From NCBI RefSeq assembly GCF_006345805.1, contig NC_043007.1, positions 31,930,001 through 31,994,000 of the forward strand: DNA of 64,000 bases. Reading direction: 5' to 3'. The first letter of the stretch is position 1. Each line of letters begins with the position of its first letter. The notes beneath the pieces were generated by a model. The model saw nothing but the letters and a program-made list of their open reading frames with translations. It was not told the origin of the DNA and did not search any database. The translations under genes were made by a program, and so were the position numbers. The DNA is from Octopus sinensis. Taxonomy: Eukaryota. Below are positions 7,559 to 55,662 of the stretch, one piece after another.

Positions 7559-7712
7559 TTTTTTATTAATGTTTAGCAGTAGTAACGGAGTGACTCCCAG
7601 GGCCGAGAGTTTCGTGTGTGCGTTACCACTTAACAAACTTTGATAAGTGCCAATCGACGAAACTCTCGGACCTTGAGTCACACTGTTAGTTTTGCTAAAT
7701 ATTAATAAAAAT
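7559..7712. repeat. Imperfect palindrome with a decayed hammerhead-like core
   Basis: Arms of about 55 bp (TTTTATTAATGTTTAGCA..CCGAGAGTTTCGT / ACGAAACTCTCGG..TGCTAAATATTAATAAAA); TTGATAA at 7640-7646 and GAAAC from 7659. Confidence 0.6.
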
Positions 7713-7747
7713 GTGGGTGTGGGGGTGTGTGTTGAAAGTGCTGAGGA

Positions 7748-7761
7748 GTTTCCATGGCAAC
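7748..7761. promoter_or_regulatory. RFX X-box motif
   Basis: GTTTCCATGGCAAC matches the near-palindromic X-box consensus GTTNCCATGGNAAC. Confidence 0.5.
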
Positions 7762-7884
7762 TTTGAGTTTGCTTAACAGAAAGGCGTGGCCTCTAGGGCA
7801 AAATTCCTCATCTTTAAAATGTGGCCCTAATAAACCCGAATGAAATTAGATTATAATACTAGTATATATATATATTATATATAT

Positions 7885-7922
<38 letters not shown>

Positions 7923-7953
7923 AGCGAGAAAGAAGCAACAAGAATGGATAGGT

Positions 7954-8044
7954 TTTTAGTACGATCGTTTCATACAAGGACAGGTTTTATTAAAAGTTGC
8001 AAAGATTACAGCATATAAACGAGTCCCGTACTCATCAGCTAAAA
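7954..8044 (-). ncRNA. Type I hammerhead ribozyme (mirror copy)
   Basis: Reverse complement of 9044-9134. Confidence 0.8.
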
Positions 8045-9043
8045 TACATGTAAGTTCTCTAGACATCCTAGTGTTTGAGGCTATACTCATGAAGTAATGT
8101 AGATAATTAAACAGATTTCTAAAGTTCATTAAAGTTCTTTAAAGATGATGTACAGTCTTATCACAGAATTTTAAAAAAGTTTTGATAGCATCACAGAGAA
8201 GGTGACCTAATCCATATGAATTTCCATAGATATGATGAGGGATTATATACTCACAGAAGACAAATTTATCCATTGTTAATTACAACGAGGTGGGTCTCAA
8301 TTCCTGCTTATTAGCATTACAGAGAGGGTGAATTAATCCTTTGTATATATGCACAGATTCCAATGGTGTAGATGTAAATTTCTAGAGAAATGGAGATGAA
8401 TTTCATATTCACAGGCGATAAATTTTTCAATGGTTGAACACAATGAGGTAGGTATCAATTCTTGTTATATGATTAGGTATTTGCCACATTAATCACATTA
8501 CTGCTATTCACAAGAGGCTGTAGCTATTTGAGGAAATAGCTACAGCCTCTACAAGAGGAAATAGCTACAGCCTCTTGTGAATAGCAGTAATGTGATTAAT
8601 GTGGCAAACACCTAATCATATAACAAGGATTGATACCTACCTCATTGTGTTCAACCATTGTAAAATTTATCGCCTGTGAATATGAAATTCATCTCCATTT
8701 CTCTAGAATTTACATCTACACCATTGGAATCTGTGCATATATACAAAGGATTAATTCACCCTCTCTGTAATGCTAATAAGCAGGAATTGAGACCCACCTC
8801 GTTGTAATTAACAATGGATAAATTTGTCTTCTGTGAGTATATATAATCCTCATCATATCTATGGAAATTCATATGGATTAGGTCACCTTCTCTGTGATGC
8901 TATCAAAACTTTTTTAAAATTCTGTGATAAGACTGTACATCATCTTTAAAGAACTTTAATGAACTTTAGAAATCTGTTTAATTATCTACATTACTTCATG
9001 AGTATAGCCTCAAACACTAGGATGTCTAGAGAACTTACATGTA

Positions 9044-9134
9044 TTTTAGCTGATGAGTACGGGACTCGTTTATATGCTGTAATCTTTGCAACTTTTAATA
9101 AAACCTGTCCTTGTATGAAACGATCGTACTAAAA
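9044..9134 (+). ncRNA. Type I hammerhead ribozyme
   Basis: Stem I UUUUAG/CUAAAA; core CUGAUGA 9050-9056; stem II GUACGGGAC/GUCCUUGUAU with a long loop; GAAA 9117-9120; self-complementary stem III ACGAUCGU; GUA triplet with predicted cleavage after 9128. Confidence 0.8.
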
Positions 9135-9456
9135 ACCTATCCATTCTTGTTGCTTCTTTCTCGCTTATAACACCCCACATTACTGTATTGTTAAATCAGT
9201 ATAGTTTTTTTTGGTGCATCTAAGTTAGGTACCATATTCAAGTAAATTTTTTAAATTAACTTGAATCTTTATTGCTCTTTGTATATATATATATATATAT
9301 AATATATATATATATGTACATATGTATATATACATATATACATATGTATATATACATATTATATATATATATTATATATATATATATATATAATATATAT
9401 ATATTATATATATAATATACATATGTATTTATATATACATATGTATATATATATAC

Positions 9457-9487
<31 letters not shown>

Positions 9488-9517: not shown

Positions 9518-9551
<34 letters not shown>

Positions 9552-9559
<8 letters not shown>

Positions 9560-9690
9560 GAAGGAGCTTCTACAGGACTAGAACTGTTTCCCTGTAGAAG
9601 CTCCTTCTATATAATAAATTAATTTTACTCTGCTATGTATTGAGTACCTTATTTACTGTGGTTAACCCCGAATCAACCCGGGACCTACAT
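9552..9690. repeat. Short hairpin element in (TA)n with a 3'-half hammerhead remnant
   Basis: Perfect 25-bp arms 9552-9576 and 9591-9615. The loop reads GAAAC-AGUUCUA-GUC on the minus strand. The tail motif ATGTATTGAGTAC recurs at about 27595. Confidence 0.6.
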
Positions 9691-9707
9691 ATATATATAT
9701 ATATATA

Positions 9708-9988
9708 GACCGACCAGGCTATCAGATGTTGTTATACATCGCTGGTCACAATGCGCTTTGCATTGTTTTAGCCTTCGAATGACGCCACCCCGCTGGCTAA
9801 GCAAGCAGGCCAACAGAAGAAAGAGTGAGCGAAAGAGTAAAGCAGGGGTCGGCACCACACCCTGCCGGTGCCTTGTGGAGCTTTAGGTGTTTTTGCTCAA
9901 TAAACAATCACAACACCCGGTCTGGGAATCGAAACCGTGATCCTATGACCGCGAGTCCGCTGCCCTAACCACTGGGCCATTGTGCCTC

Positions 9989-9990
<2 letters not shown>
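9708..9990 (-). mobile_element. tRNA-derived SINE (family B)
   Basis: Minus-strand head with A-box TGGCCCAGTGG and B-box GGTTTCGATTCC. Confidence 0.7.
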
Positions 9991-10049
<59 letters not shown>

Positions 10050-10105
10050 CTGTAAAGGTAATATATGACAATTATTCCGTAGCAATGATAAAACACTGAT
10101 GGTCG

Positions 10106-10166
10106 GATAACTGAAGAGATGGCAGTGTGGATTTCCACCCCGACATCTGAAACTCAGAGTTTTATC
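10106..10166 (+). ncRNA. Minimal hammerhead ribozyme-like motif
   Basis: GAUAA - CUGAAGA - stem II GAUG..GUGGA/UCCAC..CAUC - GAAA - near-palindromic CUCAGAG - GUU triplet - UUAUC. Confidence 0.6.
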
Positions 10167-10518
10167 ATGGCTACTGAATAATTGTGCGGCATGTTTTTAG
10201 GTTCTCATATTTGGCTGTTACGGACAGATTTTCTATAGCACAGCAAAGTGCAATAGTCTCAGTCCTTTGTCATCACCTCTGTGAAGCTCAGCATCTTAAG
10301 ATCAGCCTTCACTTCTTCATCCCATATCATCCTGGGTCTCTCTCTTTCACAAGTTCCGTCACTACGCATCACATGACAAAACTAATTCACTCCTTCTTTT
10401 GCACACTACATCTGATTCCTCTTATGCATTAGTTTTTCTCTCAGTATATTAGCACTTTTGTCATACATGCATACCGATACAGCACATCCAACTGAGCATA
10501 GCAGCTACAAACACACAC

Positions 10519-10563
<45 letters not shown>

Positions 10564-10619
10564 CTGTAAAGGTAATATATGACAATTATTCCGTAGCAAT
10601 GATAAAACACTGATGGTCG

Positions 10620-10680
10620 GATAACTGAAGAGATGGCAGTGTGGATTTCCACCCCGACATCTGAAACTCAGAGTTTTATC
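10620..10680 (+). ncRNA. Minimal hammerhead ribozyme-like motif (duplicate)
   Basis: Copy of 10106-10166 in the second tandem unit. Confidence 0.6.
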
Positions 10681-11111
10681 ATGGCTACTGAATAATTGTG
10701 CGGCATGTTTTTAGGTTCTCATATTTGGCTGTTACGGACAGATTTTCTATAGCACAGCAAAGTGCAATAGTCTCAGTCCTTTGTCATCACCTCTGTGAAG
10801 CTCAGCATCTTAAGATCAGCCTTCACTTCTTCATCCCATATCATCCTGGGTCTCTCTCTTTCACAAGTTCCGTCACTACGCATCACATGACAAAACTAAT
10901 TCACTCCTTCTTTTGCACACTACATCTGATTCCTCTTATGCATTAGTTTTTCTCTCAGTATATTAGCACTTTTGTCATACATGCATACCGATACAGCACA
11001 TCCAACTGAGCATAGCAGCTACAAACACACACACACACACAGGAACAAATCTCTTTCAGTTTCTGTCTGTTGAATTCATTCACAAATCTTTGGTCAGCAT
11101 GAGGTTAACTT

Positions 11112-13329: not shown

Positions 13330-14530
13330 TCAAAAGAGTGGAAACATTGAGCTTTGAGGCCTTCCCAGTAATTAATCCCTTTAACTGAAGTTATTTTCCT
13401 CCTGAATGTTCTCTTAGCCATTCAATTTCTTCTAGGAGACAAATGTGTTTGGAGACCAAAGCTGTGAAAAGTAACCTGATCTACTGAAAAGGGTTTCTCT
13501 AGAGTTGGCATAACTACTGGTTCTTATGGTATGAAGGTTTTTAGTATACACCCTATGAGAGATCTGCATTTAGAAGTCAAATTGGTGATATGGCTGTTGA
13601 AAGATGCATCGTTTGACATGATTACAAAGTCCTGTATTTTATTTGAACTTTGAATTGTTACGTTATCTAGTATCAAATAATTTATATCAAATGCTTATCC
13701 ATTAGGTTGGAGCGAAAATAGCCTTCGATACTTAATATAATTTGTTAGATTGGCCGAAAGTATCTTTAAGCTCATATCTGATAGAGTAAGGATAAATAAT
13801 AGTGGTCTTGGAACTGTACCTTGAGACACACCACTTATTACAGGTGAGTTGGCAGGGAGGAGACCATTTGCAACAACAGATTGATTCCTAACAGTAAAAA
13901 GTCAAAGTGCCATACTCTGAGTTTTCCTGTGATACCAGGATCCCTTGACCTATGGCAGATAATTCTTTGATCAATCTTGACAAAAGCTGTAGTAAAATCA
14001 AGGTACATGCAGTCAGTATCCATTCTCTTCAGGGGATTATTAAGAATAGTATTATGGTGTAGTTGTGTTAGGCAGCTTTGTTCTGTCCAAAAACCAAACT
14101 GTGTATGTACATACATACATACACAAACACACACACATATATATGTATATATATATATTTTTTTTCTAGCTTCAGCTCAGAGCTGCGGCCATGCTGATGC
14201 ACTGCCGTTTTGCTACACTGTTATTACTAAGAGCCTCCTCTAATATGTGGCACTTGGTGAAGAATGGAGTTTGATACAGCTACCCTCATTTGCACCTCTT
14301 GCCGTGAGGTAGGTTTATCTAGAACTCTCAACAGGAAGAGGTCCAGCTTTGATTTAAAAACCCCTACATCTACTTTGTGCAAATTCCTCAGACTCTTTGG
14401 GAGAATACTAAAAAGCTGTGGGCCCTTGAAACCCAGGATGTTGCAGTAGCTAGTCCTGATGCGTGATGGCATTGCTGGGATCTTTGGCACTATGCAGTGT
14501 CGTCCTGTTCTCGCATTGGTGTAGCTTTCA

Positions 14531-14535
<5 letters not shown>
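13330..14535 (-). mobile_element. Degenerate CR1/L2-type LINE fragments
   Basis: RT-like YLDFTTAF motif in ORF 13838-14134, and a C-terminal GPQLFSILPKSLRN..FKSKLDLFL in ORF 14227-14589. The fragment order implies two separate insertions. Confidence 0.65.
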
Positions 14536-14588
<53 letters not shown>

Positions 14589-16720
14589 AGCTTTTATCTA
14601 CTTACCTAAGAACAAATCAATATAAAGTTTATATCATCACAGGCTGAAAATCTTACTTCGTGATATTCTAGTATATCTGTGCAGAAATGTTCTGTATGCT
14701 TCGAGTTATCTCCCCTTGATACGAATATCTACTTTGCACATAATTTCTTGGACAAGCGAGGAAATAACTAACAAAAACAACTGTATTGAGGAAAAAAAAC
14801 TAAAAACCCTTGAGTGTGGTGCTCCAGTTTGGCTGCAGCCCATTAACTCCCTGCCAACAGATTACCAATTCTAATCCCACGCTCCATAAATCACTGCCAC
14901 ACCTTGTCGTTTCTGTGCTGGGTTTTGGTCATGTTAGTGAAGACTGAAATTAGATATAAGTTGGTTGTTTGAATGATAATGAGAAAGATCCTTCCTCCAA
15001 TAACTGGACCAGAAAGTATCAGTCAGGGTTTGTAACCAGATGGTTTTGAGATAAGTCCTGCTGTTTGGCAATTTGGGCAAGCATCTTCTATTGTAGGCCA
15101 ACCAAACTCTTGAGAGTAGATTTGGTAGATAGAACAAAAAAATGAAAGAAGCCTGTCCTATTTCTGCCTGGCTCTCCATCATTTGCGACGACAAGTGTTC
15201 CATTTGATTCATTCATTGGAACAGCCTGCTTGTGAAGTTAACGTGCAAGTGGTCAAGTCCTCCACGGACATGTGCACCCTTAATGTAGATTCAGTGTAAC
15301 ACAGAAAATGACAAGCAGACCCTTTTAAATTACATGTACAACTCATTTTTACCAGCTGACAATGTGAATTAAAGTGTCTTGCTCAAGGACACAATGCTTT
15401 GCTAGGAATCAAACACAAGACCTTATGACCACGAGCTCTCAAAACCACTAAGCTATACAGCTTCACCCTGTCATATATACCATTATCATTTAACATCTAT
15501 TTCCCTTACTGGGTTTAAAATAATAATGAAATTATTGTATACAGTGCTCAGGTGCACCACAACTTGTCAAAAGTGCGTGTAAAGCATATGCAGTAATGTT
15601 CAAATGTCTGGGAAGTGAACAGATACCTGCTTGCGTGTGTATGGAGGGGAGAAGATCAGGTGTAGTGTTGGCGAATCTCAGGAAGCATGGAAGTTTTGAA
15701 GGATGCAGTGCTCCGACAACTAACAACTGATGCCGGCAGTTTGTTCTGGAATCCAGGGAGCTACTAGGTTGCATCAAGCTCCAGTGACATTTGGTGTGTT
15801 TTCCATGCTGGCATGGGTTAGATGGTTCGACAGGAGCTGGTAAGCTAGAGGATGGCACCAAGCTCTAATGCCTGCTTTGGCATGATTTCTAAGGTAGGAT
15901 GTCCTTCCTAATGTCCACCACTTTACAGAGAGTACCAGGTGTTCTTCTCGTGCCACTGGCACTAGTGAGGTCATGAATAAACTTGCCAGAAAGGAAAAGA
16001 ATACACACAGAGGCTACTGATAGGCATCTGGTTATAAAACAAAACCTCAAGAATATATTCACCTAACTCATGCTAGCATGAAAAAATGGAGGTAAAATCA
16101 AATAAACAAATGAATCATTATCATCGTTTAACGTCTGTTTCCATGCTAGCATGGGTTGGACGGTTCGACCGGGGTCTGGGAAGCCAGAAGGCTGCACCAG
16201 GCTCCAGTCTGATCTGGCAGTGTTTCTACAGCTGGATGCCCTTCCTGGCAACAGCCACAATCGGTTGGTGCTTTTTACGTACCACCGGCACAGAAGCCAG
16301 TCAAGGCGGCGCTGGCATCGGCCATGTATGGATGGTGCATTTTCTGTGCCACCGGCACAGGTATCACAACTACAATTTCCATTTGCTTTTTTGATGTTGG
16401 TGTACTTGACTCAAAAGGTCCCCTGGATGATTGCAACTGAAAGACATCAAAAATGCAAATAACAAATCTTATTTTAATATAAATCATTCATATTTATGAA
16501 ACACAAGAAGCGGAGTATGTACTCTCTGTTCAATTATACGGTATTGCTTTTTGAAGTTGGAGATGCAGGCATGGCTGTGGTGAAGAGATTCGCTTTCCGA
16601 CTGTATGGTTTTGGGTTCAATCTCTCAGTGTGTTACCTTGAGCAAATGTCTTCTATTACAATCCTGGGTCAACCAAAGCTTCGTGAAGGGTTTTTGTAGA
16701 TAACTATGTGGAAGCCCACC

Positions 16721-19275: not shown

Positions 19276-20954
19276 TTTTTGTCAGTTTAAATATTAAAAT
19301 ATGAAATAATCAGAGGCTATTACAAAAGAAAGTATTCTAAAAAACCATTGTTAGAAACAATTTTTAAAAAGAGAAGTAAATAATAACCTGTAATTAATAA
19401 TACCCAAAATTAAATAATAGCTTAATTAAGAAAATATATGTAACTTTTCTTTTAGATACAGTATTACTATAAATGAAAGAGTAATCTTTGAATTATGAAA
19501 GTTAGTGAAATTTTGGTATTACATCAATAGGAAAGGATTTGTTGTTTAAATAATGGTTATAAAATTAAGGTGTAAGGCTATGAAAATCTTTAATAAATAA
19601 CTCATGAACAAATGATATCCCTCTTATATAATTATTTTAATTAAAAACTAAAATTAAATTCTAACTAAATGAAATAATATTGCATCATGAAAGGTGTTTA
19701 TAAGTCATTAAATTAGTGACTCTCATAAATTTAAATATTGCCATGCATGCAATATTTTCTAGTAATGTTTTATTATATTGGTATTGGGGGGAGAGATTTA
19801 CAAACCATGAACATGGTACCTACCTAAATTATGAAAGTGCTAACAAAAAATATCTGTTACAAGAGAATCAGTAATAACGTTTCTTGTCCAAGAAATCAGT
19901 TTGATGTCAAAGGGTACAGGTTGACCCTTTCTTCTAGAGCTCTAAAGTCAACATGTATTTTGATGATTTTTCCCCCTTTTCGTGGTGCCTTTCCCTCAAT
20001 TTTTAATCAATAAAATTCATTTTGTAAACTCATTGTCTTTTTGATTTCTATTCAAAATTTTCAGTATTGCTGCTTCAATAGACACAATTGCATTTCTAAA
20101 TATTTCAAAAAGTCATTTAATATTTACTAACAGAGCAGAATGTTGCTAAATACAAGCACTTTATTTTTTTATTTACACACACACAAATATATATATGCTT
20201 TTTTCTATTTCAGTTTTTAAAGTAAAATAATTTCCAATGTCACTTGTACAATTTGTAATTTTTTTTATATCCTTTGTTTAAATTGCTATGATCTCTAGGA
20301 TAAAGTTTATATTTATGAGCAAAAATATAGTTTTCTTGGCTCTGAAACAGTTACCTGCTTTGTCTAAGTGAAACTATAGTGTGTTCCTTCCCCAAATAGC
20401 AACTCCAAACCTCAACAAAGCACAATCAACAGATGGAATATCCTAGAGATGTAAATACAAATTGTATTTATCCAATGTTTTTGACATAACAAAAAAGAAA
20501 TGTCCAAAGGTTTATGGCTTCATGGCACCATACTTAGCTGATGTGATTGGCCTGTCATTTCATAGACAGTATGGTATTTGTTGAAAGAGGTTTAGCTGCT
20601 ACATGGAAAATAAAAAGGCTCCATTACCTGCTATTAGGGTTCATAATTTTATAGAGACAAGTGATTATCTAACAATGGTTTGTCAGAAGTTTTAGCCAAA
20701 TTAAGACTACAAAATAAAAGCTAAATGACCTCTTCAGTAGTGAAACTTCCGTTTTGTTTTATATTTTCAAGGAAATTTGAGAATTGTCTTGCTTATTGGT
20801 TAAGTTTGGGAGGCACTAAAATACTTCCAATTTTTACAGCACATGAAAGCATATTAAGAGTATACAAATGCTTATTGTGTGTTCGGAAATATTTAGTCAT
20901 GTTTGTATACATAAGTGATGGTTGCTATGTACGATCCCTTAATATGTTGTGTGT

Positions 20955-21235
20955 AAAATCCGTTAGATTCACTTCAACATCTAAATTTAATATGCAAAAA
21001 TATTTTTGTTGCTTTGAGACTGCAACCTGTTCACTGACAAAATTTGGTGTAGCAAGAAATTTTGTCAGTGAACAGGTCACGGTTTCAAAGCTACGAAAAT
21101 ATTTTGACAAATTAAATTAAATGGTTTTTGTGTGTTTCTTAAATGGCTTATAAACACCTTCCATGCTGCAATTGTTTTTGTTGCAACACACTATCTCAGA
21201 TCAGGTCACTTGCTATGCAAGTACATCTCTGAAAT
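20955..21235. mobile_element. Palindromic element with a G3-C8 hammerhead-like core
   Basis: Inverted arms at about 20985-21055 and 21057-21120, plus a tail. 21061-21111 reads UUUGUCA-GUGAACA-stem II-GAAA-AUAUUU-UGACAAA. The same family occurs at 36790-37040 and as a remnant at about 60710. Confidence 0.65.
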
Positions 21236-24200
21236 AATATTACTGCATTAGTATTTAAGCCAGCCAAATCCAGCCCAAATATTCTGTTTTGTGTTTGAAC
21301 TGGTCAGATTTGGCCCTTCACACAATGTTATTCTAAAAACAAAAATCTTCGAAATCTCAAAGCCATGAGATAATGCACGGTTAATTCAAAACAATGTGAA
21401 TAAATAAATATTATATTTGACAGAGTAATCTGAATGCTAAGGGGGTTATGGCTACAATTTACTATTATAATGGCTAGAATTTTTAATAAATACTAAACGC
21501 AGAGTGTTTTTTCAAATAAATTGTTACTAATTACTCTAATTCTACTAAAGAATTCTGTTTACAGAATTCCACTGAAGTATATGTTTACATAGGAAATATT
21601 TAAAAATGTTATTTAATTAATTAATTGACTGAAGATGTTATAAAAAAGTATCATTTACACTGCAGCTGAAGAAAATCAGACAAGCCCTTTGCATAGAGAA
21701 AAAAAAAGTAAAAATGAACAAAATTTCTTTGAGCAAGGAAAAAAAAATGCCAATCTCAGTATTAATTTGAATAAATCTCATTGCATTTTCTTTTTCTTTT
21801 TTTACATTTTTATTTTTCAAAATTGAATGTTAAACTGCTGTTTCCAGTATCAAAAGACTATAATTCTCAATTTTGATTAAACAAAAAAATGTATTGATAT
21901 TTTTGATATGTACAAGGAAAAAAAAAACGAAAAAGAAAAAAAGAAAAGAAAATGGTACTGTTTATTATACCCAGGATAATAATGATTTCTAACACAGGCA
22001 CAAGGAAGGCTAGAATTTATTATTATTATTTTATTGTTGGAAGGGTGAGGGTTTGGAGTACTTCAACAGCTATTTTATATCATCAGATCTGAAAGATATT
22101 GACTTCAACAAGATTTAAACTCAGAACCCAGCTAAATGCCACAAAGCATTTTGTCCAGTGTTCTACCGATAATTTCACACTATATATAGGCACTGTATGA
22201 TAGAGGCCAATATGTTCTAGAATATACCATATTTGATGGCACAAAAGATGCACTTTTTCCAAAGAAAAAAAAATGTCTTAAAAAGGATCCTATACATAAA
22301 GTTGGGTCACCCATGAGCTTTAATGCACAAAAAACATTTTTCTCCTGAATATGCTCCACTGAAATTGGGGGGCATCTAATATGACCATATACCTCTATGC
22401 CATCAAAAACAGTAATATTTTTCTAATATCATTCTTAATAAATAGGCAGATGTTACAGAAACTAAAGTACATTCTGAAATATTCCCCTCCTAGCTGAGAT
22501 GTTAACATGAAAATCTTTTCACAACACACTAACACTACATTTCAATCGATTTGGTCACTAAAGCAACCAATATAGTGTAAATGTAAATATAACAGAAATA
22601 TTTCATCTGTAAAGTTGATAGAATTATAATCATATTATTTAAATAGTTCTTGAGTTGATTTTAAAAGTATTACAGTCTACAACAGAAGATAGAATAATAT
22701 AAAGAATTAAATAGCTTTTTATGTGACCAGAGAGAAGAACAGATAGATGGAGTGAACTGTACAATGGTTCAGCCTTGACCAATAAGATTTTGTCCCCAGA
22801 AGCTCAAGGATGCAGACCTCTACAGACTAGTTGGCTCAAAAATGCAGATCTGTACGAGGTGAAAGGGAGCTGGTAGGTGTTGCCTCCTTACTGACAAGAT
22901 ATTTGCCAGCATCCTGCTGAGCTGGTTCATTGCAGATCTTGATCAGGGACTTTGTACAAAAGCCTATGAGGATTGTAGATGAGTGGGTGAGGAGCAGTTG
23001 ACAGGACATCCACTGCCAATAACAGAACTGGTTTATTTTGCACCTGTACTAACTCAACCAAGCAAGCACTTCATTGTTATCAGCATTTAGGATGTGGAAG
23101 ATCATTGCTAAAAGCAGATACCAAACAAGTTCATCTTTTTGATGCAACCATTTTACACAGGCATCAAGATATCCATGAAAATGGGAAGAGATCAGAACTG
23201 TTTACAATCTCAAATAGTGTCCAGCAGGGTTGGCTGGCAAAAACCTTCAACTTGGCAAAAATATCAAGTTTGCAAATGGCTGCATCCCTGATGCTGGCTC
23301 AGAAACTGATGTCCAAGACAAGTTATTATTCGCTACATACACAAACATCAGTCTTGCCTTTAGAACAAAGAAAACTGAAATACTGCATCAGCCAGCTCCG
23401 GGAAGTTCAGAAAAGAGATTTTAAGAAATGCTTCAGGTACTCCTAAAATTTATTTCTCTAAATCCACACACCTGGGAACACAATGACACATTGACCAGGT
23501 CCAAACAGGATTCTTCTGTACATAAAGGTTCCATGTTATGTCAGGAATGCTGCAGAGAAGCAAAGGAGTTAATCCAGACAGCAATCCTTAAGATTTTGTG
23601 TCAATTTGATCCTTTATTCCAACACTGGAATCACCTTCCATCCTTGGATAGGCATCATCAGTTATCTGTGGACCCATCTTGCTGATGATTTTATTCCTGA
23701 ATAATATGAAGTGACTACCATCATAGACTTGATGGTTAAATAACAGAGATTAATGGAATATACACTTCTGATAAAATATACAATTATATTTTATGTATAG
23801 CATATTATTCAATATATTTACCTGAGATGTACAGGTAACTCTAATCCGATCTCTCCTATAAGATATGAAACTGACATATAAAGAGTATTTTAGTATTTTA
23901 ATGTCCTAACTTCATTAGTAGTTTGGAATTCCTTCAAGGGGTTTAGATTTCCATCAAAACCAAGAAACTTTTTCTCTTCAAAATTCGAAACTACTTTCTA
24001 TTCTTTGAAAGCCCCCAGTTAAATTACAGGAAAATACTTTTGAAGACAAATAGTTAGAAAGCCGAAGCTGAGGTCTTATAATATTTTATCTTAAAAATAA
24101 AACAACTTTCATTTTGAAATTTTAAAAGTCGAAAGTACAGTTTGTAAGCTCTTACGCAACCTACTTCTAATATTAAAGTCTATAGAACTTGAGCAGATAT

Positions 24201-24882: not shown

Positions 24883-25103
24883 CCCTTTCGTTACTGAATT
24901 TATTTTGAGATGTTCTGTGCTTCTTTCAATTATTTCAGATATAACAAAGAATTTAGCAAAATAACTTCATTATCATTAAGCTAGTGTTGGGAACATAAAT
25001 TGTGACTAAGGTTTGGTGGAAGATTTTAATTCAAAACTTATGAAAACAAGACATATATATTAAAGAGCCAGAGATGGTTTCAGCCGGGTTGGTAACAAAA
25101 GGG
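24883..25103. mobile_element. piggyBac-type MITE (family 1)
   Basis: TTAA TSD and CCCTTT/AAAGGG termini. Confidence 0.85.
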
Positions 25104-26175: not shown

Positions 26176-26211
<36 letters not shown>

Positions 26212-29860: not shown

Positions 29861-30690
29861 CCCTTTAGTATTTCAACTGGCCATATAAAGCGGCCCAAAT
29901 ATTCTGTTTTAGGTTCAAACTGGCCAGATCTGGCTTTTCACTCCTACCCAACAATGTCATTCTAAAAGTAAACAACCACATCACTGAGATCTTTAACCTA
30001 AGTGATGATGTATGATTAATTTATCTTTTATCTTGTTTTAGTCATTTGACTGTGGCCATGCTGGAGCACTGCCTTAGAGAATTTTAGTCAAACAAAATCA
30101 ACCCCGGGACTTATTTTTCTTTTGCAAAGCCTGATACTTAGTCTATAGGCCTCATTTGCTGAAACTGCTAACAGGGATGTAAACACACCAACACCAGTTT
30201 TGAAGTGGAGCTGGGGAACAAATACAGAAACAAAAACACACACATAAATATATATCTGTAAATGTAATATGTGACAATTATTCGGTAGCCAAGATAAAAC
30301 TCTGAGTTTCGGATGGCGAGGTGGAAATCCACACCCCCATCTCTTGGATGGCCGGATAACTGGAGAGATGGTGGTGTGGATTTCCACCTTGGCATCCGAA
30401 ACTCAGAGTTTTATCTTGGCTACCGAATAATTGTCACATATTACATTTACAGATATATATATAAATATATATATATATGCTAGCATGGAAAGTGGACGTT
30501 AAACGATGATGATGATGATGATGATATATATATATATATATATATATATACGCTATGATTTTCTTTCAGTTTCCGTCTACCCGAGGCTATAATAGAAGAC
30601 ACTCGTTCCAGGTGCCATGCAGTGGGACTGAGCCATGTAGTCAGAAGGCAAAAAATATATATTTGGCAGAGTAATCAGAATGCTAAAGGG
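29861..30690. mobile_element. piggyBac-type MITE (family 2) carrying nested insertions
   Basis: TTAA|CCCTTTAG...CTAAAGGG|TTAA, interrupted by a family A SINE at about 30021-30650. Uninterrupted relatives lie at 63186-63406 and about 21245-21447. Confidence 0.75.
30251..30458. mobile_element. Palindromic hammerhead-bearing element in the SINE's (TA)n tract
   Basis: Near-perfect arms of about 95 bp. The motif at 30355-30415 (GAUAA-CUGGAGA-stem II-GAAA-CUCAGAG-UU-UUAUC) belongs to the same family as 10106 and has an A6G core change. Confidence 0.7.
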
Positions 30691-33960: not shown

Positions 33961-34275
33961 TAATTTCGTTTTTGGATTTGGTTTGCAAGATTCTTTATAT
34001 GAGTTTGTGTGTTGAAGCATATTATGTTGTGTCTGGGGAAAGTCATTTTCTTTTTGTGCCTTATAATGTAACACACTCACTGGTTAAATTTCCACTTATT
34101 TTCCTAAAATTTTTGTTGCATCTTGCCAACTTTACAAGACTATTGAAAAGGTTGCAAGACACAACGGAAATTTTAGGAAAATAAAAATAAGAAAAAAGTG
34201 GAAATTTTACTGGTGTGTGTGTTACATTATAAGGCACAAAAAGAAAATGACTCTCCCCAGACACAACGGAATATG
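33961..34275. mobile_element. Palindromic element (U3-A8 hammerhead-like family)
   Basis: Arms at about 34025-34125 and 34150-34272; same family as 53295-53548; decayed motif at 34140-34176. Confidence 0.7.
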
Positions 34276-36789: not shown

Positions 36790-37040
36790 AAGCTTTACGG
36801 AGATGTACTTGCATAGCAAATGACCTGACCTGAGATCGTGTGCTGGAACGAAAACAATTGCAGCATGGAAGGTGTTTATAAGCCATTTAAGAAACACACA
36901 AAAACTGTTAGATTCACTTCAACATTTAAATTTAATTTGTCAAAATATTTTCGTCGCTTTCAGACCACGACCTCTTCACTGACGAAAATATTTTGACAAA
37001 TCAAATTTAAATGTTGAAGTGAATCTAACGGTTTTTGTGA
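36790..37040. mobile_element. Palindromic element (G3-C8 hammerhead-like family)
   Basis: Arms 36901-36955 and 36981-37036. The minus strand reads GUCA-GUGAAGA-GGUCGU..GCGAC-GAAA-AUAUUU-UGAC. Confidence 0.7.
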
Positions 37041-37081
37041 CTAAAGACTAACCAGGTGAAATTATTGAAAGAGAATATTAC

Positions 37082-41641: not shown

Positions 41642-42201
41642 CAGTAATACCTCACTTTGCAAGGACCCCCTTTGCGAGATCCCAGGTTTACGAGTTTTAT
41701 TTTAAAATAAATATAAAGATCCAAATTTTGAAAGAAGTGCAAAAGTTTCTACAACCACAACAAATGCTTCGGTGTGTTACCAAGAAATTTACAGAGAGTG
41801 AAAAAAAAGGCTTTATTCTAAGCAAACAACTTCGGACTTGTTTTTTAAAAAGAAATCTGCAAGTCCATCCTACAAGCTCTTGTGAATTGGCAATCACATC
41901 TACAAGCGATGGTGTGCACAAGTCTAGTGTGAGTGAAAGTGACTCAGAAAATGATTATAATAATAATGATAATATTTTTTATTATAAATGATCTTGACAT
42001 AAAGTATTCTTTACATCCTACTGTTGTTTTATTGCCATTTATTTATGAGTGTTATAAAATTTTACAGGGTAGAATAGTTTTCTGGGAACAAATTATGATT
42101 TATAACATTGATACTATGGGAAATTATTGCCCTGCTTAATGAGTTTTTGCTTTACGAGTTGTCTCTGGGAACAAATTAACTCATGTATCAAGGCATTACT
42201 G
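41642..42201. mobile_element. pogo/Tigger-like MITE
   Basis: TA|CAGTAATACCT...AGGCATTACTG termini. Confidence 0.55.
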
Positions 42202-42231
42202 TGTATGTATGTATGTGTGAGTGTATGTATG

Positions 42232-42267
<36 letters not shown>

Positions 42268-43210
42268 GATAAAATTCATTGTGTGTGTGTGTGTTTCCTA
42301 TATGTATGGTCAAACTGTTGGATCAATCTGTATCAAGTTTGGCATGAAGGTTTTTCATTACTCGGGGATGGTTCTAGTGGGTAGGGGAGGAAGCAAATTT
42401 TGTTCCTTGCCCATATATGGGTCTGCGTCCCCCACCATACGACACTTCTGATTTTTTTTTCAGTGATATATTGTTTCTCTTTTATTCTTTCACTTTAATA
42501 AGACTATAATATTGTTTCACTTTTATCTATAAAATCCAGTGTGTGTGTGTTTCCTCTATGCATGGTCCAACCGCTGGATCAATCTGTACTAAATTTGACA
42601 TGAAGATCTTTCATTAGTCAGGGAAGGTTCTAGCATTATATAAAATGGGCTTCCACTCAATATCCACCAACCAAATTCACTCACAAGGAATTGAGCAGCC
42701 TGAGGCTATAGCAGAAGACCCTTGCCCAAGATGCTGTACAATAAGACTGAACCTGAAGCCATAGAGATGCAAAGTGAGATTCTTAACCACACAGCCATGC
42801 CGATTATTTAATTTATTACTAATTACTATTTATATTAATCCTTGATCGTCTACTGGTTTCTTTTAATTAAAAACATTCACGTTTAGGAGAGCATTTAAAA
42901 AGACATTTGGAGAGTATGAAGTCTCTCTGGCTGGTGTGGTCACATAAATGGCAGGTGATCAGATGGTTGGCCAGTTTCCTGGAGTTAGTGTTGCAAATGC
43001 TGAAATCATTTTCATTATAGAACTCCCATGATGACCCTTGAACCCTTAATTCAGTGAATTATATAATAATAATAATTATATTCTAATTGCAACTGTTTGA
43101 AGATGTTCTTTCAATTGACACTATAACAACACACACACACACACACACACACAATTTTAATGCTAAATATGATGAAAGTAAAAGATTATTATTATTGGAA
43201 ACCCACTTAC

Positions 43211-52254: not shown

Positions 52255-52896
52255 TGAAAAACTTCGACCAAGATCAAAATGAAATATGGTTATGTGCAGA
52301 CCCTTCTGAAGTTCCAAGTGTTATGCATACAAAATTTCCTGAAACTGTCATAGTTTTAGGGGTTGTCAACAATGAAGGACATGTGATGCCTCCTTACTTC
52401 TTTCCACAAGGCCTTTGAGTTAATTCTGCCACCTATATTGAGGTCCTGGAAACAATTAAGCCCTGGATAGAGAGTGTATGCAATGGAAGGCCATATATGT
52501 TTCAGTAAGTCTCTGCACTGTCACACATGGCTCTAGTAACACAGGAATGGATAGCTGAAAATTTTTATGATCACATAACCCCTAATACTTGGCCTACTAA
52601 TTTCCCAGATCTCAATCCATTGGACTATTACATGTGGAGCATTGTTGAGAGAAGGTCAATGAACATGTCCATATCACCGAAGATTCTTTGAAAGATGCCA
52701 TAGTCAGAGTAATGTCCAAAATGAACCAGGACCACTTGATTCGAGCATGTGGTTGATTTAGATCTCATATAGAAGAAGGTGGCTTCATTGAATAACATTA
52801 TTTTTATCCTAATAGCATTTTTTGATAAATAAAGTTATCTGTTATTATATATCTATTTTTTATAAGCATAAATTTGTCCTCAAATATCTTACCCTG
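52255..52896 (+). pseudogene. Tc1/mariner-superfamily (maT, DD37D-type) transposase 3' relic
   Basis: Reads GHVMPPYFFPQGL*VN..KPWI..YMFQ*V..WPTNFPDLNPLDYYMWS. There are 37 residues between the mutated second D position and the PLD aspartate. The relic ends ..ACCCTG|TA. Confidence 0.8.
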
Positions 52897-53294
52897 TATA
52901 TGACAGAAAAACCAGGAAACCTACCTTATGCTTCCTACAGAGTATTGTGGACTAACCATGACCAAATGACATTAAACATCATACAAATAATTAACATTTC
53001 ATCTATCAAACCCATTTTACACCATATTTTCTTTTGTGCCATTGGCCTAATTATGCCCTTTTTTAATCATATATCTGTTTTAGCTCACAATATAAACTAT
53101 GACAGATTTATAGCATAGGTGTCAGCAGTGACATCCCACAGTTCAGAGCAAATATTATATTCATTCTGGACTGCAGGTGTTGCAGGTGGTAGACAAGGTA
53201 AGCAAAATGTTGAAGTCTAAACAAAACCAATATTTCAAGACAGAGAGAAAAAAAAAATCTAAAGATATAGTAACAATACATGTAATTAATTATA

Positions 53295-53548
53295 TTTCGT
53301 TTTTGGATTTGGTTTGCAAGATTCTTTATATGAGTTCATGTGTTGAAGCATATTCTGTTGTGTCTGGGGAGAGTCATTTTCTTTTTGTGCCTTATAATGT
53401 AACACACACACCAGTAAAATTTCCACTTTTTTCTTATTTTTATTTTCCTAAAATTTTCGTTGCGTCTTGCAACCTTTTCAATAGTTTTGAGTGTGTTAAA
53501 TTATAAGGCACAAAAAGAAAATGACTCTCCCCAGACACAACAGAATAA
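53295..53548. mobile_element. Palindromic element with a U3-A8 hammerhead-like core
   Basis: Arms at about 53352-53410 and 53490-53547. Minus strand 53448-53484 reads CUA-UUGAAAA-G-GUUGC-AAGAC-GCAAC-GAAA-AUUU-UAG. Confidence 0.7.
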
Positions 53549-53588
53549 TTAATTATAACTTGAAATAAAACACAGAAAACGGTTTTAC

Positions 53589-53797
53589 CTGTAAGAAGTC
53601 AGAGCAAATGGCAGCAATGAGATAATCTTTTCCCATTTCACAGAAAATTGGAGAGTGTAGCAACTGAAGAAATTCTTCTCGTAAAAAATGTAAAGCTTGC
53701 CGATGGACCCACTGAGACCCATGGGGTTCAGAACTCCATGTCAAAATAGAACTTAAATTTTCTACAGCAATACTTTCTACAATTATATCTTCACAAC
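53589..53797 (-). CDS. BTBD7: BTBD7 internal exon (BACK domain start); upstream exons not found in the window
   Basis: TTTCAG| acceptor and CAG|GTAAAA donor; 209 nt, phase 1 to 0; GCEDIIVESI..WSSEPHGSQWVHRQALHFLREEF..SDFLQ. Confidence 0.93.
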
Positions 53798-55454
53798 CTG
53801 AAAATAGAAACAAGAGAAAATATAAACTGATGAAAGTGATATCCAGTCGAGATAAAACAGCAAGATGGATAATACTGGTAAGAGGCCACACATTTGTAGA
53901 GGGAGGCATTTAATTGATTGAATTAACTCCAATTTATGACTGGTACATGTTTTGTTTACTCAGATCACAGAGGCTCAAACTAAATACCGCAAGGCATTTT
54001 ATTATTTCTTCCAACCTATTGTCCTAGATACATGTATTCTCTCACTGGTTTCAGTCATTAGATGGCAGCCATGCAGGTGAACCCCCTGCAACATATTTTT
54101 ACTTGGTTTTATCGACCTTGGTCCTTATTTCATTGATCTGGAAAGGAGTCATAAGGTCAAAATTAGAAATGGTGCATCACATCAATAAGAGAGAGAGAGC
54201 ATAGGACCCAGGTATTAGTCAGCTCAGATATAGGGGTATGCACAGTTGCAGTGCATCATTGCATCTACCACTTGTCTGCATTTGCTCAGGTTGTCCCAAG
54301 CAATTCTCCCAGTGGGGTCCCAGTGAGTCTCCATCTCTGCGAAATACTTCCTCATCCATTATGACTATGTGGCATGAGGATGACCAACGTGAGCCATCAC
54401 CCAGGCCAGATCTTCAGTGAAGAGGACACAACACGCAGGATCCCACTTGAAAAATCAAGAAAACTGACCAAACAGTCTGAGTCAACAACAAACTCCAAAT
54501 CATGCAACTAACAGGACACATCCCCACAAAATCCTACCAAAGGTGACCTGCAATCCTGTGAAGCATCCTGGTGCCAAAGGAGTCCAGGTGGTCTCTAAGG
54601 GCTCCAAACAGTGTCCAAGTCTTGCAACTATAGAGCAAGACAGGAAAGACCAGAGACCTGAAGACCCCGAATCATTGTCCTCCTGCTCAAATATTAATAG
54701 CACCAAACACCCTTGTCCAGTGAGTCCACAACTGCGCCAACACATCCAGTCACAGCAAATACTGCTGTGGATCATACGGCTGAGGTAAGTGAAGCAGTCT
54801 AGAGCTTTGTCCATACTCTTAGGAAGCACAATTTCATTATCAGTAATATAACGATGGTTTGGCAATTATTTAAAATAAGTGTATGTACTAGAGCATAGTT
54901 CAGAGAGGGTCACTTTAATTTTGCTGAGCACTTGACAAGTGTTCTCATGCTGATGTCACAATAAAACGCACCCTGTGTCTGCTATAAAGTGGCTGACATA
55001 AGGAGAGAAATCCAGCAATAAAAACCTCACCAAAATGGAATATATGAACCAGAATATGGTTCTCTGACGCATTTAAGCAGGCAGTAATTCTGAATAAGAA
55101 CTGACTCAGATGTGATGACACGTCCACCTCATGTCAATGTGTAAGGTGGATGTAAAATGATGATGAGGAGGAGGATACACATCATATTTAATTGTGAAGC
55201 AAGGGAAGATGTTTTTGCGAGGGCAGGAGTGACATCATTTTCGTGTTGCTTTTTACACTTTTATGATGCTGATGATGATGCATCAAAGGAATCTGAAAAA
55301 TATTCTGAAGATGATTTTCTGCAAATGGACAGGCATCAGCTGTCATATGAATGCAATTTGTTCTGGAAGTCAGACGTGTCTATAGAGAGAAGAATGTAAA
55401 AGCGATTCATATATATATATATATATACTTTATTTAAAGCAGCAAAAAATTCAA

Positions 55455-55503
55455 CAAAACCTGTTACTCTGAGTTTCCCGTTGCCGTTCATCGGACAGTT
55501 TTG
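55455..55503 (-). ncRNA. Minimal hammerhead ribozyme-like motif
   Basis: CAAAACUGU-CCGAUGA-ACGGCAACGG-GAAA-CUCAGAG-UA-ACAGGUUUUG, lying between (TA)n tracts. Confidence 0.6.
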
Positions 55504-55630
55504 TTTGGATTATATATATATATATATATAATCCAAACATGAAAACACAAAGAGAAAACACAACAACGCGAGGACGTGGAACAAGTATAGTATTATTGGA
55601 CGCTCAGGAAAGGAAAGAAAGAAGGAGGAT

Positions 55631-55662
55631 TTTAACGTTTCGAGAGGAGCTCTTGTCAGAAA
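55631..55662 (-). ncRNA. Minimal hammerhead ribozyme-like motif (decayed)
   Basis: UUU-CUGACAA-GAG(CUCCU)CUC-GAAACGUU-AAA, with a palindromic AACGUU stem III. Confidence 0.5.

What the first reader, a model, noticed from the sequence alone, without database searches (positions are those of the whole stretch)
7559..55662. Window-wide ecosystem of at least six unrelated hammerhead/palindrome element families with no autonomous partner in view
Seen: elements at 7919, 9552, 10040/30251, 20955/36790, 33961/53295, 55455 and 55631 share little primary sequence. Most share one architecture: an inverted arm pair, an asymmetric tail, a hammerhead-like core with a palindromic stem III, and often insertion in (TA)n, including TA tracts inside SINEs. 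This amounts to roughly ten motifs in 64 kb. Inference: a large radiation of non-autonomous Penelope-dependent, retrozyme-like RNAs in this lineage, possibly a major source of dsRNA and intronic self-cleavage.
Basis: partly seen in the sequence, partly recalled or inferred. Interest (0 to 1): 0.75.

Follow-up and report, generated by a model that had tools for sequence, protein, structure and literature searches.

The report
Penelope-like retroelements with hammerhead ribozymes
The window holds about a dozen insertions from seven repeat families built like Penelope-like retrotransposons (inverted arms, an optional tail, TA-repeat targets), one of them a truncated copy of a coding family whose hammerhead ribozyme motif is conserved with compensating changes, while the short families are likely non-coding passengers of the same copying machinery.

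Summary

- **Elements found.** Seven families (F1-F6, F8) give 13 pieces in the window. One piece comes from a local 537-bp duplication.
- **Not TIR MITEs.** The arm junctions vary. An optional tail of about 45-116 nt sits at either end. Direct repeats of 8-13 bp flank F5 and F6 copies outside TA tracts. TA tracts flank most copies.
- **F2 (7919-9283).** This is a 5'-truncated inverted dimer of a coding Penelope-like element. The genome holds thousands of reverse-transcriptase (RT) copies and intact open frames. These carry the diagnostic motifs of the published Hydra clade.
- **Hammerhead in F2.** The type I motif is supported by covariation across 25 distinct copies: 91.8% of cells pair, against 34-50% when the partners are slid.
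- **Rfam and strict counts.** Rfam reports no hammerhead. A strict canonical count in the window equals shuffled sequence. The support therefore comes from the families, not from the window count.
- **F8 and F3.** The families carry canonical cores. The window copies are decayed (F8) or truncated (F3).
- **F5, F6, F1.** These carry core-pair variants: G3:C8 in F5, U3:A8 in F6 and F1.
- **F4.** It has canonical letters plus one extra base.
- **Untested.** Cleavage, circular RNA, and dependence of the short families on Penelope-like enzymes.

This is a new member of a known kind.

The parts
7509..7712 (.). F1. An old palindromic family (75-83% identity; >=1,082 first-look candidates). Tail of about 45 nt at 7509-7559, inverted arms at 7560-7712. 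Most copies carry a U3:A8 hammerhead-like block at the palindrome centre, but it has no helix I.
   Evidence: TA tracts at 8 of 10 loci
7919..8545 (-). F2 left arm. An inverted 5'-truncated copy of the 3' region of a Hydra-clade Penelope-like element. It ends at the first of the two 3' ends and has no tail.
7954..8044 (-). Type I hammerhead motif in the left arm, the mirror image of 9044-9134.
8559..9169 (+). F2 right arm. A 5'-truncated copy of the same element, 99% identical to long coding copies elsewhere in the genome.
9044..9134 (+). Type I hammerhead motif. Helix I 9044-9049/9129-9134. Core CUGAUGA 9050-9056. Long helix II. GAAA 9117-9120. Palindromic helix III 9120-9127. Predicted cut after A9128.
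9170..9283 (+). F2 tail. An optional 3' extension present at one end only, followed by (TA)n.
   Evidence: 29 of 48 matches run on into it, 15 stop at the arm end, 4 are partial
9548..9689 (+). F3. Short inverted arms (9548-9612) plus a 77-nt tail (9613-9689) in (TA)n. The arms keep only the 3' half of the family's hammerhead, from GAAAC onward.
10047..10185 (+). F4 copy with a short inverted arm and a long arm. The hammerhead-like block at about 10105-10163 has core CUGAAGA and one extra base before GAAA. Its right end is cut short.
10561..10699 (+). F4 copy made by a local 537-bp tandem duplication, not by insertion.
30250..30458 (.). F4 copy with two 100-nt arms in (TA)n and no tail. The core reads CUGGAGA, so A6 is lost.
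20955..21229 (+). F5 unit with an inverted partial copy at its 5' side. The hammerhead-like block at about 21060-21110 has core GUGAACA and a broken helix II.
36795..37039 (-). F5 unit (36795-36987) with an inverted partial copy (36981-37039). The core reads GUGAAGA, so G3 and G8 do not pair.
60709..60780 (+). F5 fragment.
33963..34275 (.). F6 copy with two arms and a tail on the left, in (TA)n. GAAA has mutated to GGAAA/CAAAAA in the arms.
53294..53547 (-). F6 unit (53294-53490) with an inverted partial copy (53488-53547).
53448..53484 (-). Intact U3:A8 minimal hammerhead-like motif of F6: CUA UUGAAAA G GUUGC-AAGAC-GCAAC GAA AAUU U UAG.
56446..56506 (-). F6 fragment.
55531..55716 (-). F8 unit, 5'-truncated, with its 3' end on (TA)n. 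The minimal hammerhead at about 55625-55665 is decayed: CUGACAA, helix II broken.

Best explanation
The flagged elements are insertions of Penelope-like retroelements: one truncated inverted-dimer copy of a coding Hydra-clade family, plus six families that show the same insertion signature and are likely mobilised by the same kind of enzyme.

**Shown here**
- The anatomy of the insertions.
- The variable flanking repeats and the TA targets.
- The coding partner of F2.
- A hammerhead motif conserved with compensating changes in the terminal repeat of the coding families.

**Inferred from published work on Penelope-like elements**
- The GIY-YIG endonuclease nicks (TA)n.
- Reverse transcription starts at either of two internal sites near the RNA 3' end. 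This gives copies with or without the tail.
- A template jump at the 5' side adds an inverted partial copy. That produces palindromes whose arm junctions vary.

**Predicted, untested**
- The hammerhead cuts element transcripts, probably as a dimer through its palindromic helix III.
- The core-pair variants (G3:C8 in F5, U3:A8 in F6 and F1) keep some activity.
- Transcripts of the palindromic copies fold into long double-stranded RNA.
For: **1. Coding partner of F2**
- A 947-aa open frame lies at L099:556-3396.
- It carries RWK, ADKT, GLYRDD, CxCRx5C, a C-terminal GIY-YIG and CxxC..E..N..CxH.
- These motifs are conserved in 8 frames from this genome and in 5 remote homologues of 36-44% identity.
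- They match the traits listed for the Hydra clade, including (TA)n insertion and canonical hammerheads (PMC8557442 section 11, read whole).

**2. Hammerhead**
- 25 distinct sequences from families whose RT is 60-99% identical were aligned.
- The core C3 U4 G5 A6 A9 is invariant, and N7 takes all four bases.
- 10 of 23 pairs change on both sides.
- 91.8% of cells pair, against 34-50% when partners are slid. 0 of 500 shuffles reach the covariation score.

**3. Two discrete 3' ends**
- Of 48 matches, 29 run into the tail, 15 stop at the arm end and 4 are partial.
- This fits the two RT start sites reported in PMC11167929 (passages read).

**4. Same architecture in the other families**
- The tail lies on either side in F4: 5 left, 4 right, of 10 copies. 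The same holds for F1 and F3.

**5. Flanking direct repeats of 8-13 bp**
- F5: 9 of 12 copies outside TA tracts; control 59 of 600.
- F6: 5 of 13; control 20 of 650.
- The 5' repeat lies 13-167 nt upstream of the motif anchor, so the inverted piece lies inside the duplication.

**6. TA targets**: see the counts.

**7. Motifs at family level**
- Canonical core in F8 (5 of its 11 descriptor sites; the other 6 read A8) and in the longer F3 copies.
- F5 block genome-wide as an exact 17-mer: 6,349 sites with G3:C8, 220 with G3.G8, 5 with C3:G8.
- The 5 canonical sites lie in other low-copy elements that share the same flanking block.
- The unpaired base after A9, the G10.1-C11.1 pair, the palindromic helix III and the U3-A8 swap are published traits of Penelope hammerheads (PMC4209133, passages read).

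**8. Head-to-head pairs**
- 11 (-,+) pairs, 40-92 nt apart, occur among the first 100 listed F5 sites.

**9. Hint of double-stranded RNA**
- The hint comes from contigs of two runs guessed to be RNA.
- All 21 changes on F2 that are absent from a deep run with 0.80 of the words are T>C (15) or A>G (6).
- Only 8 of the 19 changes shared with that run are of these kinds.
Against: - Rfam reports no hammerhead at any threshold tried.
- The strict motif count in the window equals shuffles.
- Folding energy of the F2 motif is ordinary (z = -0.90).
- No sequence similarity links F4, F5, F6 or F8 to the 20 coding loci examined, apart from nested insertions. No partner is identified for them.
- F3 belongs to an element of at least 2.3 kb. 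The only protein signal in it is 47 aa at 36-38% identity to the endonuclease region, in one copy.
- F4 has an extra base between helix II and G12 that no published descriptor allows.
- F6 has a 3-bp helix I, and F1 has none.
- My Penelope-type descriptor was written after seeing the motifs.
- Copies within a family share ancestry, so site counts are not independent events.
- In palindromic copies the two motifs lie on opposite strands, so one transcript cannot form the dimer.
- PMC11167929 reports that cleavage was not needed for insertion in vitro. It also found no RNA-seq read ends at the cut site.
- In one search the run kind is a guess, and the RNA-like and DNA-like runs carry different organism codes.
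Confidence: 0.8

Rival explanations
1. The families are ordinary DNA transposons: TIR MITEs, foldback elements, or Helitron-type elements that land in A|T and carry hairpins.
For: - Near-perfect inverted arms.
- Fixed outer arm ends in F1 and F4.
- TA flanks that could be read as a TA duplication.
- The covariance search matches them only to long-hairpin microRNA families.
Against: - Arm junctions differ between copies.
- A conserved tail lies at one end or the other.
- Direct repeats of 8-13 bp with variable length flank F5 and F6 copies outside TA tracts.
- F2 arms flank RT and GIY-YIG reading frames, not a transposase.
- 5' truncation points vary: 4065 to 5367 in nine copies.
Confidence: 0.04
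2. F5, F6 and F8 are SINE-type elements copied by LINE enzymes, and their hammerhead-like blocks are chance hairpins.
For: - The units are about 200 nt with fixed ends, in thousands of copies, with variable flanking repeats.
- A recent annotation of Octopus vulgaris lists about 900 'unclassified SINE' families (PMC13282606, passages read).
- No sequence link to the 20 coding Penelope-like loci was found.
Against: - The units hold runs of four or more T in sense orientation (visible). By general knowledge these stop RNA polymerase III.
- ARAGORN finds no tRNA-like part anywhere in the window.
- The TA target, the head-to-head inverted pieces and the position of the motif match Penelope-like insertions.
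- The blocks carry published Penelope-specific traits. They exceed shuffles: GC 21 against 0.15, TA 26 against 0.5, in 549 kb. These sites are not independent.
- F8 has a canonical core.
Confidence: 0.12
3. Only the canonical motifs (F2, F8, F3) are ribozymes. The G3:C8, U3:A8 and extra-base forms in F5, F6, F1 and F4 are dead relics or coincidences.
For: - The strict count equals shuffles.
- F6 has a 3-bp helix I and F1 has none.
- F4 has an extra base.
- The compensating helix II change between F5 and F6 can arise from two CpG decays.
- Copies of young families are alike by descent alone.
Against: - 6,349 F5 sites keep the paired G3:C8 form, against 220 with the unpaired G3.G8 form.
- Canonical relatives of the same block exist.
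- The U3-A8 swap is a published Penelope hammerhead variant. The C3G/G8C double mutant keeps partial activity in vitro (PMC4209133, PMC11167929, passages read).
- Four independent U3:A8 clusters were found where 0.5 sites are expected.
Confidence: 0.4

Closest known systems
Hydra clade of C-terminal-endonuclease Penelope-like elements (Craig et al. 2021, PMC8557442)
   Same: - RWK motif; DKG changed to DKT; CxCX5C linker.
- No Cys pair inside the GIY-YIG core of the homologues.
- CxxC and CxH around the conserved E and N.
- C-terminal GIY-YIG, insertion into (TA)n, and a canonical hammerhead core.
   Different: - The paper describes elements generally under 3 kb, with tails of 30-40 bp.
- Here the frame is 947-1,124 aa with a long N/S-rich stretch between RT and endonuclease. 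About 4.5 kb separate the frame start from the tail end.
- The tail is about 114 nt.
- Helix II of the hammerhead holds an insert of about 50 nt with its own hairpin.
- No phylogeny was made here.
Minimal hammerheads of Penelope-like elements (Cervera and de la Pena 2014, PMC4209133)
   Same: - Type I topology.
- Unpaired base between A9 and 10.1; G10.1-C11.1 pair.
- Short palindromic helix III, which implies dimers.
- U3-A8 core covariation.
- Pairs of motifs on opposite strands 100-700 bp apart.
- Most copies are single and truncated.
   Different: - A G3:C8 family of at least 6,349 sites. My two searches found this pair only as a laboratory double mutant.
- F4 has an extra base on the 3' side of helix II.
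- Activity was not tested.
Non-LTR retrozymes of animals (Cervera and de la Pena 2020, PMC7229834; Li et al. 2026 preprint, abstract read)
   Same: Short non-coding repeats with type I hammerheads, proposed to derive from the terminal repeats of Penelope-like elements.
   Different: - Retrozymes are tandem arrays of 170-400 nt that yield circular RNA.
- The families here are dispersed single units or head-to-head pairs with flanking repeats.
- No tandem arrays or circles were seen.
Non-autonomous Chlamys elements such as MRC1 (PMC8557442 section 10, passage read)
   Same: Non-coding derivatives that make the same insertion structures as their coding relatives.
   Different: - Those share their 3' ends with known autonomous families.
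- No such sharing was found for F4, F5, F6 or F8 among the 20 loci examined.

Membership tests
Penelope-like elements (F2 family) | One reading frame with a reverse transcriptase followed by a GIY-YIG endonuclease. | tested here: met
   - 947-aa frame.
- Pfam hits are weak and below cut-off: RVT_1 at E = 0.018, GIY-YIG at E = 0.0024. The whole protein gives none.
- RT and GIY-YIG motifs are conserved in the alignment.
Penelope-like elements (F2 family) | Terminal repeats direct or inverted, 5' truncation, an adjacent inverted 5'-truncated copy, and an optional tail at one end. | tested here: met
   window copy 7919-9283
Hydra clade | RWK motif, DKT instead of DKG, CxCX5C linker, no CCHH in the core, CxxC/CxH near E and N. 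| tested here: met
   against the description in PMC8557442 section 11. The motifs were matched by eye. No phylogeny or CDD profile was run.
Hydra clade | Insertion into (TA)n. | tested here: met
   19 of 19 F2 loci, against 31 of 232 control windows over all families.
Hydra clade | Placement inside the clade in an RT tree. | not tested
   No reference sequences of the named clades were at hand.
Hammerhead ribozyme, type I (F2) | Core CUGANGA ... GAAA ... UH with three helices that covary. | tested here: met
Hammerhead ribozyme, type I (F2) | Match to the Rfam hammerhead models. | tested here: not met
   The insert of about 50 nt in helix II and the loop-free helix III are the likely cause (inference).
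Hammerhead ribozyme (all families) | Site-specific self-cleavage. | not testable with these tools
   Only contigs were on hand for the runs found.
Hammerhead ribozyme (F5, F6, F1) | C3 and G8. | tested here: not met
   G3:C8 in F5, U3:A8 in F6 and F1. The positions remain paired, so this lowers 'canonical member', not 'works like one'.
Hammerhead ribozyme (F4) | Helix II directly abuts G12. | tested here: not met
   One extra base: C in 11 of 13 copies, U in 2.
Non-LTR retrozymes | Tandem head-to-tail repeats with a hammerhead in each unit. | tested here: not met
   The copies examined are single or head-to-head. No array-wide scan was run.
TIR MITEs | Fixed terminal inverted repeats with a duplication of fixed length. 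| tested here: not met
Non-autonomous Penelope-dependent elements (F1, F3-F6, F8) | Shares 3' end or recognition sequence with an autonomous element, or is shown to be copied by its protein. | tested here: inconclusive
   No similarity to 20 coding loci. F3 lies in a longer element with one weak endonuclease-like stretch.

The most novel reading that the evidence does not exclude
Octopus-type genomes carry a radiation of SINE-sized, non-coding parasites of Hydra-clade Penelope-like elements. One family of more than 6,000 copies uses a natural G3:C8 swap of the hammerhead core pair, so far known only as a laboratory double mutant. Their head-to-head insertions in TA microsatellites are a standing source of ADAR-edited double-stranded RNA.
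Probability: 0.3. Interest if true: 0.7.

Novelty: new member of a known kind. Interest (0 to 1): 0.45.

Why it matters
- **Annotation.** Several thousand-copy repeats that standard pipelines would call unknown, SINE or MITE get a mechanism and a class.
- **Hydra clade.** The little-studied Hydra clade extends to a cephalopod genome where it looks young: copies are 98-99% alike and intact frames exist.
- **Ribozyme study set.** The genome offers a natural series for the hammerhead core pair: C3:G8, U3:A8 and G3:C8 in similar blocks, in thousands of copies.
- **RNA editing.** The palindromic insertions are obvious candidates for the double-stranded RNA that feeds the heavy A-to-I editing known in cephalopods.
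- **Caveat.** The kind of element, the insertion signature and the U3-A8 variant are already in print.

Tried and rejected
- **Rfam.** Three scans gave no hammerhead, only long-hairpin microRNA look-alikes.
- **ARAGORN** on the window: 0 genes.
- **Pfam** on the whole 947-aa protein: no RT or GIY-YIG above E = 1.
- **Earlier findings:** nothing on this genome or these words.
- **BLAST of the families against 20 coding Penelope-like loci.** Only F2 is related. F5 and F6 hits are nested insertions. The F8 hit in L111 is another F8 copy lying at the start of a stop-to-stop frame. I first misread that hit as coding similarity.
- **Penelope-like proteins against the window:** only that F8 artefact.
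- **F3 upstream sequence.** Two loci share 2.3 kb of homology, but no clear reading frame was found.
- **Sequencing runs.** No RNA holder is listed. All 24 runs are kept as contigs, with their kind guessed. Molecule ends at the predicted cut site could therefore not be read. Table 6 lists none, which contigs cannot show anyway.
- **Second read-laying request** (window 20500-37500): not completed. The other palindromes were not checked for the A>G/T>C pattern.
- **Folding energies** of the motifs are ordinary. Two of the three stretches I folded there were badly chosen.
- **Not attempted.** A covariance model of the compact motifs was considered and dropped, because there are too few compact canonical examples.
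- **Rejected:** Helitron and TIR readings (see rivals).

Full report
**What the window is.** The window is G000:C11:31930001-31994000, from a 2.72-Gb animal genome in 13,516 contigs. It is AT-rich, about 29-51% G+C in 2-kb bins, and full of (TA)n tracts. One protein hit carries an Octopus name. From recall, the size and contig count also fit an octopus assembly.

**Is the observation there?** Yes for the elements.
- The inverted-repeat scan finds a 1.25-kb near-perfect palindrome at 7919-9169 and a 219-nt palindrome at 30245-30463.
- Reading the sequence and searching the genome shows that each flagged site belongs to a repeat family. First-look candidate counts are lower bounds:

| Family | Candidates |
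|---|---|
| F1 | 1,082 |
| F2 arm | 1,477 |
| F3 | 19-20 |
| F4 | 2,647 |
| F5 | 2,553 |
| F6 | 1,595 |
| F8 | 2,208 |

- The site at 55455 is not a family of its own.
- Mapping family members back gives 13 pieces in the window. One of them, F4 at 10561, comes from a 537-bp tandem duplication.

**Is the hammerhead signal more than chance?**
- In the window alone, with a strict canonical descriptor, it is not. There are 3 distinct cores against a mean of 2.03 in 100 local dinucleotide shuffles, and 33 shuffles reach 3.
- Rfam gives no hammerhead on the window at gathering score or at E<=10. It gives none on 2,620 bases holding only the elements.
The family evidence reverses that verdict for part of the set.

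**F2 is a Penelope-like element.**
- Elsewhere in the genome, F2 arms stand 1-4 kb apart in inverted orientation.
- Between them lie frames with an RT motif (YRDD) and a GIY-YIG motif.
- A protein search finds 13,328 first-look candidates at 60-99% identity, with open frames up to 1,124 aa.
- One 947-aa frame carries RWK, ADKT, GLYRDD, CxCRx5C, a C-terminal GIY-YIG and CxxC..E..N..CxH. These are conserved in eight frames of this genome and in five remote homologues.
- That is the list of traits given for the Hydra clade. The same section adds that almost all Hydra families insert into (TA)n and carry canonical hammerheads (PMC8557442 section 11, read whole).
- Pfam support is weak and below cut-off, and I made no tree.
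- The window copy consists of two copies truncated at the same point (L105 coordinate 5367), joined head to head. A 114-nt tail sits on the right only, and the whole lies inside a TA tract.
- Nine truncated copies have 5' ends at 4065-5367. Three of these ends fall at 5365-5367. I cannot explain that cluster.
- Of 48 matches to the arm, 29 run on into the tail, 15 stop exactly at the arm end and 4 are partial.
- Two discrete 3' ends are what the published two RT start sites predict (PMC11167929, passages read).

**The F2 hammerhead is real as a conserved motif.**
- The last 240 nt of arm plus tail is the best-conserved non-coding part across families whose RT is only 60-76% identical.
- I aligned 25 distinct sequences.
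- C3 U4 G5 A6 and A9 never vary. G8 varies once. N7 takes all four bases.
- Helix I switches between UUUUAG/CUAAAA and UUUCGG/CCGAAA.
- Helix III switches between ACGAUCGU and ACAAUUGU and stays palindromic.
- Counting pairs: 91.8% of 575 cells pair, against 34-50% with partners slid by 1-3 columns. Ten of 23 pairs change on both sides. 0 of 500 shuffles reach the covariation score.
- The sequences are related, so the shuffle control flatters the result. The slid control does not have that weakness.
- Rfam probably misses the motif because helix II carries an insert of about 50 nt and helix III has no loop (inference).
- Folding energy is ordinary.

**The other families share the insertion signature.**
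- **F4.** Both arms end in ...CAUUUACAG. A conserved tail of about 75 nt lies left in 5 and right in 4 of 10 genomic copies. The inner junction differs between copies.
- **F3.** Short arms plus a 77-nt tail, on either side, in TA tracts.
- **F1.** The same, with a tail of about 45 nt on the left, on the right, or on both sides.
- **F5 and F6.** These are units of about 205 nt with fixed ends. Among the 40 scored matches of each search, 12 (F5) and 16 (F6) further rows are short inverted matches right next to the 5' end. They cover different parts of the unit.
- **Flanking repeats.** Outside TA tracts, direct repeats of 8-13 bp flank 9 of 12 F5 copies (mismatched-locus control 59 of 600) and 5 of 13 F6 copies (control 20 of 650). 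The 5' repeat lies 13-167 nt upstream of the motif, so the inverted piece was made in the same event.
- **TA tracts** adjoin 19 of 19 F2, 12 of 12 F3, 19 of 19 F8, 9 of 10 F4, 8 of 10 F1, 11 of 23 F5 and 9 of 23 F6 loci, against 31 of 232 control windows.

**Hammerhead-like blocks in the short families.**
- **F8.** Read on the window's minus strand, family members carry GUUU CUGACGA A GAGC-UCC-GCUC GAA ACGU U AAAU. That is a canonical minimal motif with the unpaired base after A9. Of its 11 descriptor sites, 5 read G8 and 6 read A8, as expected from decay of its CpG. The window copy is decayed.
- **F3.** Longer copies carry AGCUUC CUGAAGA UUUC-UCUU-GAAU GAA ACAG-(9 nt)-CUGU A GAAGCU. The window copy starts only at GAAAC.
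- **F5.** UUGUCA GUGAACA G GUCGC-(9 nt)-GCGAC GAA AAUAUU U UGACAA, with G3:C8.
- **F6.** CUA UUGAAAA G GUUGC-AAGAC-GCAAC GAA AAUU U UAG, with U3:A8.
- **Match to published traits.** The unpaired base, the G10.1-C11.1 pair, the palindromic helix III and the U3-A8 swap are all published traits of Penelope hammerheads (PMC4209133, passages read).
- **Positions 3 and 8.** The C3G/G8C double mutant is partly active in vitro (PMC11167929, passage read).
- **Genome-wide F5 counts.** The F5 17-mer occurs 6,349 times with G3:C8, 220 times with G3.G8 and 5 times with C3:G8. Those 5 lie in other low-copy elements that share the same block. A canonical relative therefore exists.
- **Descriptor on 549 kb.** A descriptor with these traits finds 29 clusters in 549 kb of fetched loci. 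Site counts: CG 81, TA 26, GC 21. Shuffle means: 0.15, 0.5 and 0.15. The sites are mostly copies of the families I had fetched, so the cluster count is the fairer figure. It comes to about ten canonical singletons and four U3:A8 clusters.
- **Descriptor on the window.** It finds 4 hits against a mean of 0.255 (0 of 200 shuffles). One of the four, at 25324-25379, looks like chance.
- **Weaker cases.** F4 has canonical core letters but one extra base before GAAA. F1 has U3:A8 and a good helix II but no helix I.
- **Bias.** I wrote the descriptor after seeing the motifs.

**Do the short families depend on Penelope-like enzymes?** This is inferred.
- For: the shared signature, the TA target and the motifs.
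- For: the units contain T runs in sense orientation and no tRNA-like head. This argues against polymerase III SINEs.
- Against: no sequence link to the 20 coding loci examined.

**RNA.**
- No run on record as RNA holds the stretch, and only contigs are kept. Cleavage ends cannot be read.
- Two runs guessed to be RNA gave one hint. On the F2 stretch, all 21 changes absent from a deep run holding 0.80 of the words are T>C (15) or A>G (6). Only 8 of the 19 changes shared with that run are of these kinds.
- That is the pattern of A-to-I editing of double-stranded RNA.
- The run kinds are guesses, and the runs carry different organism codes.
- A second request, on the other palindromes, did not complete.

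**Comparison and novelty.**
- Already published:
  - the element class, the Hydra clade, the tail and the TA preference;
  - inverted truncated copies and opposite-strand motif pairs;
  - the U3-A8 variant.
- Octopus repeat papers list Penelope-like elements but do not mention hammerheads (PMC13282606 and PMC8967140, passages read).
- New here, as far as my searches show:
  - the assignment of these cephalopod families;
  - the SINE-sized dispersed derivatives;
  - the large G3:C8 family.
- Supplements of the cited papers were not opened. They may list cephalopod Hydra families or further motif variants.

**Verdict.** The finding is real and the Penelope reading is right. The 'retrozyme' and 'no partner' parts are not supported, and ribozyme activity is untested.

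Noticed in passing
window 9992-10528 and 10507-11041: A tandem duplication of 537 bp at 99.3% identity carries one F4 copy into a second place.
   Followed up: yes
window 9700-9990: A GC-richer repeat ending in (AC)n lies between the TA tracts that hold F3 and F4. From recall it looks like a tRNA-derived SINE read on the minus strand, but ARAGORN finds no tRNA-like gene.
   Followed up: partly
L105 coordinates 5365-5367 (window 8559): Three of nine 5'-truncated F2 copies, the window's among them, end within 3 nt of each other, next to a local hairpin-forming duplication. This could be a preferred template-jump site or a short subfamily.
   Followed up: partly
window 7973-9128: In contigs of two runs guessed to be RNA, the changes absent from the deep DNA-like run are all T>C or A>G. 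One falls at the predicted cleavage-site base, 9128.
   Followed up: partly
L038, L045, L066, L106, L109, L116, L128, L139 flanks: About ten further canonical hammerhead motifs with GAAAC-palindrome-GU endings lie in the random flanks of fetched loci. They belong to families not present in the window.
   Followed up: no
L017:1049, L045 (minus) 2335, L120:1335: Three more independent U3:A8 minimal motifs with good helices, outside F6.
   Followed up: no
L099:556-3396: The coding frame holds a low-complexity stretch of about 250 aa, rich in N and S, between the RT and the endonuclease. The remote homologues of 696-729 aa appear to lack it.
   Followed up: no
window 42198-42307, 9276-9482, 14100-14600: TG/TA/CA microsatellite hairpins give sub-threshold matches to the mir-297 and mir-466 type families. 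These are composition effects, not genes.
   Followed up: no
window 45326-45504/48053-48231 and 45558-45702/46710-46854: Two further long inverted-repeat pairs (179 and 145 nt, 91%) around a GC-rich block at 46-48 kb. They match interspersed repeats that also occur in flanks of other loci.
   Followed up: no
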